The notes under the pieces were generated by a model that saw nothing but the letters and a program-made list of their open reading frames with translations, was not told the DNA's origin and ran no database searches. DNA of 64,000 nucleotides from an uncultured Hyphomicrobiales bacterium (GTDB lineage: Bacteria; Bacteroidota; Ignavibacteria; Kapaibacteriales; UBA2268), in the NCBI GenBank assembly GCA_964634885.1, contig CAZWLN010000009.1:17735-81734 (forward strand), given 5' to 3'. Position 1 is the stretch's first letter; the number at the start of each line of letters is the position of its first letter. Below are positions 16,301 through 20,006 of this stretch, piece by piece. A program made the position numbers and the translations under genes.

Positions 16301-16860
16301 CTGTGCAGTACTATCATTCAGATTCGAGGGGGAGTACAATTACCATGACCGATTCCGATCAGAATCTCATCAATAAGTATTCATACGATACTTATGGGCA
16401 ACTGCTCAAAATGGAAGAGACTGATCATAATCCATTCAGGTTTGTCGGCGCTTACGGTGTAATGGACGAAGGCAACGGGCTGTACTTCATGCGAGCCAGG
16501 TATTATGATGCCGCTTCGGGTCGCTTCCTGACAGAAGACCCGGTTTGGGATCTGAATCTTTACGGGTATGCCGGGAATAATCCGGTAATGAATATTGATC
16601 CTGAGGGAAAATTGTATTCAAATTTTGAACTTTTACTTGGCTTTAAAGAAGGTGGTTCGGGTTTTAATGTTGGATTGCAAAGTTTAAGGGATGTTTATGG
16701 AGTCTTTTATACAAAAAAACTATCAGTAGGACAAGCTATACAAAACGAAATAGCAAATTTATTAGTTCTCGCACCTCTTAAAATTATGATGATAATACCT
16801 GAGAATCCATATATAATTGTACCAAATGGCAAAAAGAAAAGCAAACTTAATAAATCGTGA
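10393..16860 (+). CDS. Secreted RHS/YD-repeat polymorphic toxin: signal peptide, alpha/beta-hydrolase (lipase, GHSMGG) domain, PKD domain, repeat modules, long YD-repeat shell, RHS core (YYDAASGRFLTEDP...DPEGK), about 85-aa C-terminal tip
   Basis: 2155-aa ORF; lipase motif VILVGHSMGGLSIREY; PKD motif WDFGDGTP; dozens of YD repeats (YxYDxxGNL); RHS-core aspartyl-protease motif near 16597-16611 followed by short variable C-terminus. Confidence 0.85.
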   Translation: MKKSNLIRILKVLALCIALLIMLYQPIYSAKFPYPIIFVHGISDRNKSWEKLFKEIRPLFNIPSNIPENNISNGIVFHALLNASSSTNIWGNNNVKNDDDDDVIYKFIENEQLQNSDIYFINFDCYWNEDSKYPTLITYPVKGLNLTHPGDNYYCLYNFDSKSNESAVYKQGYALSKAIDAVLKATGSEKVILVGHSMGGLSIREYLQRYENGNPKWWEINIGHHVAKVITIGTPHYGSDLLKIDAIGNFIGLNTIITRSKSEALRDLRKSSVYLNNNSNDPNYECGAFGEDIINLYFNQDINCNGNPRIDDIPGLNSPINLPSDISFTYIVSSIPYFQSEDCGDRVVTKSSQYVRYGESDTIETEKYHNGTIQKIYEPYSLIPGMKAMYGIEMEDYLSIMRALDEPNVPKLAFQLHMNQEYSNFANIGIYYNTDYDYDWYKVAVKGGLITIRLSNLLQRKGRIDFYENEPTDANSIYSKEFDNLPETEVECKPGLMLNEKEYYIRITHYNIKGPEDTDCDWNKPFTITVEGKGYFVDVDFRSDKQGVVVPNSNVQFTDLSINNGNEDLSYEWDFGDGTPNSYLKDPSHTYTEPGQYSVRLKINAYGTNFEKTLKNYIWVNPPDCPNIVKAEYFFDDDPGFGNASSITFTADNFQDIEYTIDLSDVTLGLHRLYLRVMDENGKWSHLQSRPVLVENTETYREITNVEYFLDSEPGFGNGTTIPIGKNLEVNIFPTINLTNISEGLHRLYIRAKDNKGKWSMPQSRPVLVQNIEENKITDIEFFYRRDPGKGQGNSIDIEPNYEVLVDDRLPLYNRKLGKDTIYIRAKNDKNVWGIPQSVEFTINDDLIAPELLYPIANEKVTASEINFQWTNIGAKRYELIVDNDKEMNSPEVSTINFDTLANFKKSSYKLCGNWLSDNKIFWKIKAVFFDGRSLETPVDSFNYNPTKNPQPQWAPIYRAYYQNDVDHFYCTSDEHLKTAINGNYDFEKVEGYVSIVPFETEDLKPIYRLYIDKDKSHVYTTEDTKKDYYISMDTTNLYEGIIGYTYGTTTNAESISNGGLVKLYYTFFDSADLKLRDHFYTTSEIEKNNSIRNGYVDSGFIAYVSPFGRQITEPEMDAHAIIGNGINVSNGNFNYTGATVFDIPGAGLPLRFEFNYNSNSTRLIQPIIPMGPGWNHTYNSSLIAGDSLYYIFWSNGSIHLYNKQDLKSVTNGVYNKLIKDSGNRYKVITKEQIVYIFNKFNDNDSTAVLSQIADRNGNQLDCIYQNDGTDVIRLKSVVSTVGNRKIEFIYFNEPGKNHLIKEAIDPMNRIVKFDYDNNNNLIQFTDANGFVTNYYYDSVYTYDHLLTKIKLPENNFIENIFEIDTLSGMSSKRIISQCYGDNEYNDSLHFTFHSQFNTIQMTNKLGEVDYFLFDNTPEKKIEGIVTSQSGSNYEYTDTLNPALPTKMTDGMGYKTNYLYDQNGNVLEVNLPNNTTHKFEYNEFNDVTKYSDPKGISTQYYYDEKGNLLSITNPRGKTEFRYNQNGTIAEITNPMNEKTRFEYNDYGNITKIVDNIGNKRLMEYDIAGRVIKRIDERDFSSDYAYNGNDFLTKVKNPMSKEIKYQYTQNNNLSAIINQKSDTTKLSYTSTGLLKSITNPLNQITSYDYDYSGQVVSITKPDGNKISCQYNNLGQYSNYLGGYNVIPAESRPDSIFVFNKNGNLISINTESEEKKYISYDSLNRITKVIGYFNDTISYSYDLNSNITEIIYPGGKRVSYTFYDDNLLKSLEDWHGNLTSYYYRSDGLLDSVQYGNGTNCKYDYDGTGRLIAINHKRSDGTIIFSNRYILDNAGNQLSVDSEEPFPYDPLKTGVLVSNYDRANRIDTSGKVSYKFDNNGNMTEKDSSGIITKYFYDSMNRLVQTIRQDTVSYSYDALGTRIASIRSGMTTRYVIDNNSNLSRLLVEMDSLNNPVNYYIYGLGLVSRLKTDGTVQYYHSDSRGSTITMTDSDQNLINKYSYDTYGQLLKMEETDHNPFRFVGAYGVMDEGNGLYFMRARYYDAASGRFLTEDPVWDLNLYGYAGNNPVMNIDPEGKLYSNFELLLGFKEGGSGFNVGLQSLRDVYGVFYTKKLSVGQAIQNEIANLLVLAPLKIMMIIPENPYIIVPNGKKKSKLNKS

Positions 16861-17876
16861 GAGAGAATATGAGAATAATAACATTAATAGTTTTATACTT
16901 AGTTCTTGGAGGAATACATTGTTATTCCAGGGTAATCACCGTTGACAACAAGTACCCGTCGATTGGAGATTTTACTAACTTATTAGATGCAGTACAAAAT
17001 TCTCATACAATGGATGGCGATACTATATACGTCTGTCCTTCACAAGTAGCCTACCAAGGTATTAGTAATAATAAAAGACTTATCATTATTGGCTCAGGTT
17101 GGGATGAAAACATTCCCGGATCAGGAATATCAACGATAAATGGTGAAATTAGTTTTGTCTATGGCTCTAATGGTTCGAAAATAATGGGTTTCAGTGGAGG
17201 TTTTGGGATAATAGTCAATTCTGATAATATAGTAGTTAGTAAGAATATTTTAGCAAAAATTGCTGTTGAAGCAAACCATCATGGTACAATAATTTCTCAG
17301 AATAATATTTGGAAACAAAGTTCTGATTACTGTATTATTGTATCTGATCACAATGAATTGACTATAATGAATAATATATTAAGAAATAGTTATATGAATG
17401 GCGATATTATCGGTCATGTGATATATGCTTCCGGAAGCGCCATTAGCATTACTATCAAAAATAATTATATCAAAGCTTCAGACAGATATTTTTGGGGCAT
17501 CGCTGTAAACCTCGATGGCGCTAACTCCTATGTTTATAATAATTATTTTGAAATGGGAGTATGTATTGGAAATGGCTTTTTTTATAACATGGCTTGTTGG
17601 TCCATATTACCAAGTTGCTGTAATAATCAAAATGGAATATTCTCTGAAGATGTTTTTAAAAATCCAGGAATTGGAGATTTCCGATTATTAGACAATTCAA
17701 TTGCTAAAGGGGCAGGTTTGAACGGGGAAGATATAGGCATTTACGGCGGAGATACACCATACATAGATGGTGGTTATCCAGGTATTCCTTTGATTTACAA
17801 TATCGAGTATAATTTTATTGGTACAAAACAAAACGGCTTGAAGGTAAAATTTAAAGCAAAATCTAATAAAGATTGA
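16857..17876 (+). CDS. Secreted paralog 1 of a tandem triplet (beta-helix-like, NNY/NNI-rich); conserved C-terminal tag ...KQNGLKVKFKAKSNKD; true start probably M at 16869
   Basis: 339-aa ORF overlapping RHS stop; signal peptide; shares N-terminal (ITVDNKYPS(I/M)G(D/E)(F/Y)T) and C-terminal blocks with the next two ORFs. Confidence 0.55.
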   Translation: MRENMRIITLIVLYLVLGGIHCYSRVITVDNKYPSIGDFTNLLDAVQNSHTMDGDTIYVCPSQVAYQGISNNKRLIIIGSGWDENIPGSGISTINGEISFVYGSNGSKIMGFSGGFGIIVNSDNIVVSKNILAKIAVEANHHGTIISQNNIWKQSSDYCIIVSDHNELTIMNNILRNSYMNGDIIGHVIYASGSAISITIKNNYIKASDRYFWGIAVNLDGANSYVYNNYFEMGVCIGNGFFYNMACWSILPSCCNNQNGIFSEDVFKNPGIGDFRLLDNSIAKGAGLNGEDIGIYGGDTPYIDGGYPGIPLIYNIEYNFIGTKQNGLKVKFKAKSNKD

Positions 17877-17879
17877 GGT

Positions 17880-18986: not shown

Positions 18987-18989
18987 GGT

Positions 18990-20006
18990 ATGATGATGGA
19001 AAAAACTTTATTTGTTTTACTGTCCCTTGTGTTAACATTTGGCAGCCTTAATGCACGAGAGCCGAGAATCATTACAGTTGACAACAAGTATCCTTCAATG
19101 GGAGAATACACCACTATACAGGCAGCACATGACGCTGCCATACCTGGAGATACTATTTATGTTTATCCTTCAAGTATTGCATACTCTGGGTTCAATGTAT
19201 CGAAAAAACTTACTATTATTGGTTCCGGCTGGCCCAGTATAGAATTAGATTTACAAGGAACATCAGTAAACGGAGAGATAAATTTACAGCCGGGTTCTGA
19301 TTATAGTGTACTGATGAGTATTAGTGGAAAAGCATTTATAACTATTGATGCAAATAATGTTACTATAAAGAAAAATTATTTAGATAGTAGATATTGTGAA
19401 ATAACAAATATCACTATTAAATCTAATCATACAGGAACAATAATTTCACAGAACATTTTAATGGGTAGTGACTGGATGTGGATAATACTAATTGATAATC
19501 AAAACGAGGTATTAATAAGCAATAATTTCTTGTATAGTCCAAAACAGTGGACTCCATTAGGAGGTGAAGGCGGTAAGGGTATTGTGGGAAATGCATCTGA
19601 AATTGACTTAATTATTGACCATAACCATTTCGATGTCGGACACTATCCATGTGAAGTAAATCAAAATGCTATTGTATCAAGTAATTATTTTTGGATTAAT
19701 GGGAATGTCGATGGAAGGTTATATAACAATTTCTCATCAAATTGTTGTTTCGCAAACGGATTAAATAATGTCAATAATGTAAACCCTTCAGATATATTTG
19801 TGAATAGCTGGCATATAAAACCCGGCTCAATTGCAGAAAAAGCGGGCAAAGACGGAACCGATATTGGAATTTACGGAGGGCAAACACCTTTTGTTGACGG
19901 AGGGCTGCCGGACATACCACTAATCTATGAACTTAAAGCAAACATTGTTGGTTCCAAACAAAACGGCTTAAAAGTAAAATTTAAAGCAAAATCTAATAAA
20001 GAATAA
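18990..20006 (+). CDS. Secreted paralog 3 of tandem triplet
   Basis: 338-aa ORF; N-terminus nearly identical to paralog 2 (MMMEKTLFVLLSLVLTFGSLNAREPRIITVDNKYPSMGEYTTIQAAHDAA); C-terminus ...GSKQNGLKVKFKAKSNKE. Confidence 0.55.
   Translation: MMMEKTLFVLLSLVLTFGSLNAREPRIITVDNKYPSMGEYTTIQAAHDAAIPGDTIYVYPSSIAYSGFNVSKKLTIIGSGWPSIELDLQGTSVNGEINLQPGSDYSVLMSISGKAFITIDANNVTIKKNYLDSRYCEITNITIKSNHTGTIISQNILMGSDWMWIILIDNQNEVLISNNFLYSPKQWTPLGGEGGKGIVGNASEIDLIIDHNHFDVGHYPCEVNQNAIVSSNYFWINGNVDGRLYNNFSSNCCFANGLNNVNNVNPSDIFVNSWHIKPGSIAEKAGKDGTDIGIYGGQTPFVDGGLPDIPLIYELKANIVGSKQNGLKVKFKAKSNKE

What the first reader, a model, noticed from the sequence alone, without database searches (positions are those of the whole stretch)
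16857..20006. Three tandem secreted paralogs after the RHS gene with invariant N- and C-terminal blocks encoded by about 240-bp DNA repeats
Genes at 16857, 17880 and 18990 share near-identical ends and divergent middles. The shared ends are a signal peptide plus ITVDNKYPSMGEYT..., and ...GSKQNGLKVKFKAKSNKD. The junction DNA at about 17826-18065 matches about 18929-19168 almost exactly, and the 3' block recurs at 19943-19995. This is the cassette-like pattern of polymorphic or immunity loci. Unlike classical RHS immunity proteins, though, these have signal peptides and beta-helix-like N-rich repeats. The K-rich C-terminal tag also resembles the RHS toxin's own C-terminal tail, which suggests a shared sorting or anchoring signal. 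The set may be exported immunity/decoy proteins or a recombining family of surface proteins, and has not been clearly described.
Basis: partly seen in the sequence, partly recalled or inferred. Interest (0 to 1): 0.7.

Follow-up and report, generated by a model that had tools for sequence, protein, structure and literature searches.

The report
Beta-helix partner genes of repeat-bearing exoproteins
The three look-alike genes after the RHS gene are not toxin-immunity genes: they are a three-copy array of an unnamed, widespread family of exported beta-helix proteins that almost always sits beside a large secreted protein carrying a particular short Ig-like repeat, which here is the RHS protein.

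The parts
16857..17876 (+). P1, first copy of the beta-helix (bH) array. It is 339 aa from the GTG that overlaps the RHS stop by 4 nt. An alternative ATG at 16869 gives 335 aa. Its signal peptide differs from that of P2 and P3.
   Evidence: family HMM E=2e-105
17880..18986 (+). P2, second copy, 368 aa. Its variable middle is Cys-rich and carries insertions.
   Evidence: E=8e-94
18990..20006 (+). P3, third copy, 338 aa. The AF2 model shows a right-handed parallel beta-helix followed by a C-terminal pair of strands (aa 311-317 and 329-334).
   Evidence: E=7e-109
17818..18061 (+). Junction repeat, copy A: the 3' end of P1, the spacer and the 5' end of P2 (signal peptide plus ITVDNKYPSMGEYTTIQAAHDAA).
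   Evidence: 232/244 identical to copy B
18928..19171 (+). Junction repeat, copy B: the 3' end of P2, the spacer and the 5' end of P3.
   Evidence: third-codon-position identity 92%
19946..20001 (+). Third copy of the 3' block, encoding VGSKQNGLKVKFKAKSNK.
   Evidence: 55/56 identical to 18926-18981
10393..16860 (+). Partner protein, 2155 aa. Domain order: signal peptide, lipase-like alpha/beta hydrolase, PKD, three EYF repeats, DUF5648, DUF6531, RHS/YD shell, Rhs core (aa 1998-2072) and an 83-aa tail. It has no T9SS C-terminal domain.
12271..12921 (+). Three tandem ~68-aa 'EYFxDxDPGxGxG...LHxLYxRxxDxxGxWS' Ig-like repeats (RHS aa 627-694, 703-769 and 776-843). This is the element that co-occurs with the bH family.
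20026..23268 (+). Downstream operon neighbour, 1080 aa: signal peptide, one YD repeat, Ig repeats and a T9SS type-A C-terminal domain. It lacks EYF repeats. The same protein type follows the RHS in L001.
9921..9958 (.). Strong hairpin terminator upstream of the RHS gene. No comparable terminator lies between RHS, P1, P2, P3 and the Ig gene (gaps of -4, 3, 3 and 19 nt), so they probably form one operon.

Best explanation
Shown: P1-P3 are three old, diverged tandem copies of an unnamed family of Sec-exported right-handed beta-helix (bH) proteins of about 330 aa. The family is found across T9SS-bearing phyla (Bacteroidota, Calditrichota, Cloacimonadota, Latescibacterota). It is a near-obligate gene partner of large secreted proteins that carry tandem ~68-aa Ig-like 'EYFxDxDPG' repeats. 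In this window the partner is the RHS protein, which has three repeats at aa 627-843. Unusually, the RHS lies upstream of the array rather than downstream. The 'invariant ends' have two causes. (i) They are family-defining parts of the fold: the N-terminal cap with the first coils, and the last coils with a C-terminal two-strand element P.IPSIy.L...G...GL.V.IKAKSN. These are under purifying selection in every lineage. (ii) Gene conversion homogenises each gene junction (3' end, spacer and next 5' end), while the central coils have diverged to synonymous saturation. Inferred: the conserved ends mediate an interaction common to all members, most simply docking onto the EYF-repeat stalk of the partner. 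The hypervariable central coils provide diversified, probably non-catalytic, binding surfaces. An array would then be a small repertoire of alternative subunits for one secreted scaffold. The RHS toxin tip is irrelevant to them.
Against: No direct evidence shows that bH binds the EYF repeats. A fused-chain AF2 test could not be built, and there are too few pairs for coevolution analysis. Copy number does not track repeat number (Spearman 0.04). bH proteins lack a T9SS C-terminal domain, so how or whether they leave the periplasm is unknown. The window RHS also lacks one. Fold neighbours are almost all polysaccharide lyases or hydrolases, so a divergent enzyme cannot be excluded. Multi-copy arrays are enriched next to enzyme-headed partners (14 of 22 against 18 of 130, p=2e-6), which the docking model does not predict.
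Confidence: 0.5

Rival explanations
1. Export or folding accessory. The bH protein acts transiently in the periplasm as a dedicated chaperone or targeting factor for EYF-bearing cargo. This would be analogous to cargo-linked PorP/SprF shuttles for type-B T9SS substrates.
For: The gene order is strict (accessory immediately upstream, same operon). Most partners are T9SS cargo while bH has no C-terminal domain. Cargo-linked accessory genes are an established T9SS theme (PMC12618676).
Against: A chaperone would not be expected to need 3-6 paralogs with hypervariable, indel-rich, Cys-rich central coils. Some partners, including this RHS, have no T9SS C-terminal domain. Beta-helices are not known chaperone folds (own knowledge).
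Confidence: 0.2
2. Divergent carbohydrate-active enzymes or lectins. The bH paralogs would cleave or bind a glycan that the EYF Ig-like repeats also bind, and the genes are linked by a shared substrate rather than by direct contact.
Against: There are no Pfam, NCBIfam or PDB sequence matches. No invariant catalytic-type residue lies in the central coils, and those coils are the least conserved part. Partner proteins have very diverse functions.
Confidence: 0.15
3. Head-to-tail polymerising fibre subunits. The conserved N-end and C-end of the beta-helix rod would be the polymerisation interfaces, possibly with a C-terminal strand pair donated to the next subunit. The EYF protein would be the tip or anchor, as in a pilus.
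For: The two conserved regions sit at opposite ends of the rod and the middle is free to vary. Tandem paralogs are typical of pilus loci (own knowledge).
Against: Most loci have a single copy. No lipoprotein signal or processing site like that of type V pilins is visible. No usher- or sortase-like gene is conserved nearby.
Confidence: 0.07
4. One reading: exported immunity or decoy proteins for the RHS toxin tip, with a sorting tag shared with the toxin.
For: P1 starts at the RHS stop codon. The paralogs have a polymorphic, cassette-like appearance.
Against: The family is linked to EYF repeats, not to RHS tips, and about 99% of partners are not RHS proteins. In L001 the copies are upstream of an RHS whose tail is unrelated, yet they keep the same C-terminal block. 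The tail similarity is at chance level. There are no PADLOC hits. Proteins of 338 aa with signal peptides are unlike known RHS immunity proteins (own knowledge).
Confidence: 0.03
5. Assembly artefact: a collapsed or expanded repeat.
For: None beyond the presence of a 244-nt near-repeat.
Against: The copies differ at 12 of 244 positions and the gene bodies are only 36-44% identical. Arrays of 2-6 copies recur in dozens of independent assemblies, including long-read contigs.
Confidence: 0.01

Closest known systems
Pectate-lyase-like right-handed beta-helix superfamily (PL6 alginate lyase / chondroitinase B, PL1, PL9, GH28, phage tailspikes)
   Different: Sequence identity is only 11-17% and there is no Pfam, NCBIfam or PDB sequence hit. 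No conserved catalytic Lys/Arg or Ca2+ site is visible, and the central coils are hypervariable. The family also has its own C-terminal two-strand element with the KAKSN motif.
T9SS type-B substrates with adjacent cognate PorP/SprF-like shuttle genes (Flavobacterium johnsoniae; PMC12618676)
   Same: In the same phyla, a large secreted or surface protein is genetically coupled to a small dedicated partner gene.
   Different: Here the partner is a soluble beta-helix rather than an outer-membrane beta-barrel. The coupled element in the cargo is an N-terminal or internal Ig-like repeat rather than a C-terminal domain. The partner gene lies upstream and can be present in up to 6 copies. Its function is untested.
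Cohesin-dockerin scaffolds (cellulosomes)
   Same: A tandem Ig-like repeat stalk on one protein is combined with several diverse proteins that share a short conserved terminal module. This resemblance is by architecture only and is an inference.
   Different: There is no sequence or fold match to cohesin or dockerin. Binding has not been shown. Copy number and repeat number are uncorrelated.
RHS / polymorphic-toxin immunity gene clusters
   Same: The position directly after an RHS gene and the tandem divergent paralogs are the same.
   Different: These proteins have signal peptides and a 330-aa beta-helix. The family is almost always next to non-RHS proteins, and the orthologous RHS locus has the copies upstream.

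Membership tests
RHS-associated immunity proteins | Encoded immediately downstream of the toxin C-terminal tip, as a conserved arrangement | tested here: not met
   This holds only in the window. In L001 the four copies precede the RHS. In more than 150 other loci the neighbour is not an RHS protein.
RHS-associated immunity proteins | Co-variation with the toxin tip (cognate pairs) | tested here: not met
   The window and L001 RHS tails are unrelated, while the bH C-terminal blocks are nearly identical (GSKQNGLKVKFKAKSNKD against GSKQSGIKVKIKAKSNKD).
RHS-associated immunity proteins | Neutralises the cognate toxin | not testable with these tools
   This needs a co-expression assay.
Pectate-lyase-like beta-helix enzymes (PL6 and relatives) | Right-handed parallel beta-helix fold | tested here: met
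Pectate-lyase-like beta-helix enzymes (PL6 and relatives) | Conserved catalytic base and acid plus Ca2+ ligands in the central coils, or a match to a family profile | tested here: not met
   No Pfam or NCBIfam hit reaches threshold. Across 57 members the invariant columns are A46, D54, K72, G293 and P310. The central coils conserve only Asn-ladder positions.
T9SS type-A cargo | Sec signal peptide plus a C-terminal Por_Secre_tail domain | tested here: not met
   A signal peptide is present by inspection and as a predicted N-terminal helix. None of 225 family members matches a C-terminal-domain HMM that recognises 84 of 119 partner proteins. Pfam gives no C-terminal-domain hit.
bH / EYF-repeat gene pair (defined here) | A ~330-aa beta-helix protein with the ITVDN...GDTIYV N-terminal block and the GIYGG..P.IPSI...L.V.IKAKSN C-terminal block | tested here: met
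   P1, P2 and P3 score E=2e-105, 8e-94 and 7e-109 against the family HMM; alignment.
bH / EYF-repeat gene pair (defined here) | Adjacent, co-directional gene for a secreted protein with tandem EYFxDxDPG repeats | tested here: met
   The RHS protein has three repeats (E=3e-27, 7e-26 and 1e-17) and overlaps the P1 start by 4 nt. The order is atypical because the partner is upstream.
Silent-cassette antigenic variation loci | One expression site plus promoterless, truncated donor copies | tested here: not met
   All three copies are full-length ORFs with start codons and signal peptides in one operon. Gene conversion is limited to the junctions.

The most novel reading that the evidence does not exclude
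The bH family and the EYF repeat are the two halves of an unrecognised, phylum-spanning docking system of T9SS-bearing bacteria. Proteins without a T9SS C-terminal domain would attach by their conserved ends to the Ig-like repeat stalk of a secreted scaffold, and might be co-exported with it. Tandem, junction-recombining paralogs would give one scaffold a switchable set of binding specificities.
Probability: 0.25. Interest if true: 0.8.

Novelty: new variant of a known kind. Interest (0 to 1): 0.55.

Why it matters
Large T9SS-secreted adhesins and enzymes shape how Bacteroidota and related phyla attach, glide, feed and compete. Two of their recurrent building blocks, a ~330-aa beta-helix protein and a ~68-aa N-terminal Ig-like repeat, have no Pfam or NCBIfam model and no literature that I could find. 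Yet they are coupled about as tightly as any two genes in these genomes (79 of the 82 loci that could be assessed). That degree of linkage predicts a physical or pathway-level partnership that can be tested directly in cultured carriers. It would also allow hundreds of "hypothetical protein" pairs to be annotated together. The result removes a tempting but wrong annotation (RHS immunity) and gives a clean natural example of junction-restricted gene conversion in a secreted-protein array.

Tried and rejected
1. Profile searches of P1-P3 gave nothing above threshold in Pfam, NCBIfam, PADLOC, PHROGs or PDB sequences.
2. Foldseek against the PDB gave only weak generic hits. The afdb50 library was unavailable.
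3. Conserved small upstream genes were sought in five homolog loci. None are related to each other or to the window's 225-aa ORF.
4. A 1:1 correspondence between paralog number and EYF-repeat number (3:3 in the window) was tested and rejected (Spearman 0.04).
5. Homology between the RHS tail and the bH tail was rejected as low-complexity chance.
6. tblastn found no bH pseudogene remnants elsewhere in the window.
7. A fused bH-linker-EYF AF2 job was planned as an interaction test. MAFFT misaligned the EYF homologs onto the bH part, and locus-derived paired rows are not accepted by the tool, so it was abandoned. The last structure job went to the EYF repeats alone.
8. Literature searches for 'FDTDPG' and for T9SS/beta-helix/operon and gene-neighbourhood terms found nothing on this pair.
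9. Looking up the source organism through the exact protein failed.
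Full report
OBSERVATION. The three ORFs exist as described: P1 16857-17876, P2 17880-18986 and P3 18990-20006, all on the + strand. They are separated by 3-nt spacers, and P1's GTG overlaps the RHS stop codon by 4 nt. 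An alternative ATG at 16869 gives the 335-aa form held in public databases. Overall identity is 36-44%, but the ends are nearly invariant. At DNA level, 17818-18061 matches 18928-19171 at 232/244, including about 100 consecutive identical bases across the stop codon, spacer and signal peptide. The last ~56 nt recur at the end of P3 at 55/56. Third-codon-position identity between P2 and P3 is 92% in the first tenth of the gene and 16-50% in the middle. The duplication is therefore old, because the middles are synonymously saturated, and the junctions were homogenised later by gene conversion. The 12 differences in the 244-nt block, together with similar arrays in many independent assemblies, argue against an assembly artefact.

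WHAT THE PROTEINS ARE. P1-P3 have no match above threshold in Pfam, NCBIfam, PADLOC, PHROGs or PDB sequences. A homology search returned 72 proteins of about 320-390 aa, almost all unnamed. A few are labelled 'right-handed parallel beta-helix repeat-containing protein'.

In the 57-member alignment the conserved parts are the N-terminal cap and first coils (IITVDN..PS.G.YTTLQ.AHDAA..GDTIYVYPS), an Asn ladder, and the C-terminal region HL.P.SPA.GAG.NG.DMGIYGG..P.VDGG.P.IPSI..L.....G....GL.V.IKAKSN. No invariant acidic or basic residue lies in the central coils, which are also the most variable and indel-rich part. That is a hint, not a proof, of a non-catalytic role.

GENOMIC CONTEXT, THE KEY RESULT. 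The first contexts examined showed 1-4 tandem copies immediately upstream of very large secreted proteins. In one Bacteroidota MAG (L001) this was an RHS protein with the same architecture as the window's. In Calditrichia, Draconibacterium and Bacteroidales it was a Peptidase_S8+PKD protein. In Hymenobacter guriensis it was a 3286-aa T9SS protein.

A scan of one genome per GTDB species found 174 relatives, in Bacteroidota (many orders), Calditrichota, Cloacimonadota and Latescibacterota. In the 76 loci fetched, arrays had 1 (58), 2 (16), 3 (5), 4 (3), 5 (1) or 6 (1) copies. Each array was almost always followed on the same strand, usually within 70 nt, by a 400-3286-aa ORF.

All-against-all BLAST showed that these large proteins share one element, a tandem ~68-aa repeat. 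Its consensus is NIVAAEYFFDTDPGVGNGTSISVTPGDSVDLNFSIDTSGLSPGLHTLYVRVKDSNGKWSLVESRTFYIQ. It usually begins right after the signal peptide. The window RHS carries three copies at aa 627-694, 703-769 and 776-843 (nt 12271-12921). The downstream Ig-repeat protein (20026-23268) carries none.

Seventy-five of 84 arrays have an adjacent repeat-bearing protein. Six of the remaining nine had no downstream ORF within the fetched sequence.

The reciprocal test used 80 metagenome loci selected only by the peptide pattern EYFxD[TDA]DPG. Of 86 repeat-bearing ORFs, 79 have a beta-helix gene immediately upstream, 4 lack upstream sequence, 2 have one elsewhere in the locus and 1 has none. This is close to an obligate gene pair.

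CONSEQUENCES FOR THE RHS READING. Only two of about 200 partner proteins, the window's and L001's, contain an RHS core. Other partners are S8 peptidases, lipase-like hydrolases and PKD, Ig, SprB-repeat or CARDB adhesin-like proteins. In L001 the four copies lie upstream of the RHS. That RHS is 41% identical to the window's over 2070 aa but ends in an unrelated tail, while the beta-helix C-terminal blocks are almost the same as here. The supposed similarity between the RHS tail and the tag is an 18-nt A-rich match, reached by 19 of 500 shuffles. Immunity or decoy function and a shared sorting tag are therefore not supported.

The window is unusual only in gene order, RHS then the array, instead of the array then the partner. 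P1 has its own distinct signal peptide, as first copies do in other arrays. This fits the whole array having been moved as a unit. No beta-helix remnants lie elsewhere in the window. A strong terminator at 9921-9958, with none within the cluster, suggests one operon running RHS-P1-P2-P3-Ig protein.

CONCERTED EVOLUTION IS GENERAL. In L001, L065, L066 and L068, as in the window, third-codon identity is 60-85% in the signal-peptide end and/or the last tenth of non-first copies. It is about 25-50% in the middles. Junction-restricted gene conversion therefore recurs in independent lineages. The amino-acid conservation of the ends across phyla shows purifying selection as well.

HOW IT PROBABLY WORKS (INFERRED). 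Both proteins are Sec-exported. Seventy-one percent of complete partners end in a T9SS type-A C-terminal domain, and none of 225 beta-helix proteins does. The common denominator of very diverse partners is the EYF stalk. The common denominator of very diverse beta-helix paralogs is their two ends.

The simplest model is that the conserved ends dock onto the EYF repeats, or onto a shared factor, while the variable central coils supply diversified binding surfaces. Arrays would then be small repertoires of alternative subunits. I put about 0.9 on the identity and pairing statement and about 0.35 on docking specifically.

The rivals are a transient export or folding accessory (0.2), a divergent glycan-active enzyme or lectin linked by substrate (0.15), a head-to-tail polymerising fibre (0.07), RHS immunity (0.03) and an assembly artefact (0.01).

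Some facts remain unexplained by any model. Copy number is independent of repeat number. It depends strongly on partner architecture: 14 of 22 enzyme-headed partners with internal repeats have 2 or more copies, against 18 of 130 partners with N-terminal repeats (p=2e-6). The window belongs to the enzyme-headed class.

COMPARISON WITH KNOWN SYSTEMS. By fold the proteins belong to the pectate-lyase-like beta-helix superfamily. They fail the sequence-profile and catalytic-residue criteria of its enzyme families. As a genetic arrangement, the closest known kind is the coupling of T9SS type-B substrates to adjacent cognate PorP/SprF shuttle genes (PMC12618676). Here, however, the partner is a soluble beta-helix, the coupled element is an N-terminal or internal Ig-like repeat, and function is untested. 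The cohesin-dockerin analogy is architectural only. I found no description of either family or of their linkage in the searchable literature. That library is incomplete, so prior description cannot be excluded.

VERDICT. The RHS-immunity interpretation is refuted, and the idea of a recombining secreted family is supported. What is really there is a member, atypical in gene order, of a widespread, strongly conserved and apparently undescribed gene pair. Interest is moderate to high as a lead (0.55). The mechanism is still open.

Noticed in passing
window 10393-16860: The RHS protein has an unusual build. It carries a Sec signal peptide, an N-terminal LCAT/lipase-like alpha/beta hydrolase, PKD, three EYF repeats, DUF5648, DUF6531 and the YD shell. 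Only an 83-aa partly hydrophobic tail follows the Rhs core, there is no T9SS C-terminal domain, and no small immunity-like gene follows it here or in L001. The lipase-PKD-EYF head is shared with about 10 non-RHS proteins in other loci.
   Followed up: partly
window 20026-23268; L001 15863-17168: The Ig-repeat T9SS protein that follows the cluster starts, right after its signal peptide, with a single YD/RHS repeat (aa 33-62). The same feature is conserved in the equivalent gene after the L001 RHS. It might be a handle linking this C-terminal-domain-bearing protein to the RHS shell, which lacks such a domain.
   Followed up: partly
loci L001, L044, L045, L065, L066, L068, L073, L084, L085 and window: Arrays of 3 or more beta-helix copies occur almost only next to partners that have an enzyme-like head before internal EYF repeats. 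Partners with N-terminal EYF repeats nearly always have one copy (Fisher p=2e-6).
   Followed up: yes
partners in L016, L032, L075, L100, L103, L151 (C-termini): Several EYF partners that lack a T9SS C-terminal domain end in a dockerin-like, calcium-loop-like tail (GDxNxDGxVNxxDKNDxW ... VPE). A different recurring ending (...GKCSxLPP) occurs in L104, L132, L133 and L143. This was judged by eye only. Pfam did not call a dockerin in the L032 partner.
   Followed up: no
window 29233-33427 (- strand): A defence-like trio lies just beyond the surface-protein cluster. It comprises a sigma-54 activator with an RtcR/CARF-like N-terminal domain (29233-30780), a protein with a PLD-like MIT_C domain (30777-31784) and an AAA_15/AAA_21/DUF3696 ATPase (31784-33427). 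A type I restriction R subunit follows at 37330-40704.
   Followed up: no
window 3630-9038 and 23305-29214: The flanks are also dense in surface and secretion genes. They include a BNR-repeat protein and a WD40-propeller protein, both with T9SS-type C-terminal ends, an SBBP beta-propeller/PKD protein of 1256 aa and a 712-aa OmpA-family protein. The whole 3.6-29 kb stretch looks like a cell-surface island.
   Followed up: partly
window 17968-17997 and 19078-19107: The sigma-70-like 'TTGACA...GAGAAT' hits inside P2 and P3 are simply the conserved ITVDNK...GEY codons within the converted block. They are probably not promoters.
   Followed up: no
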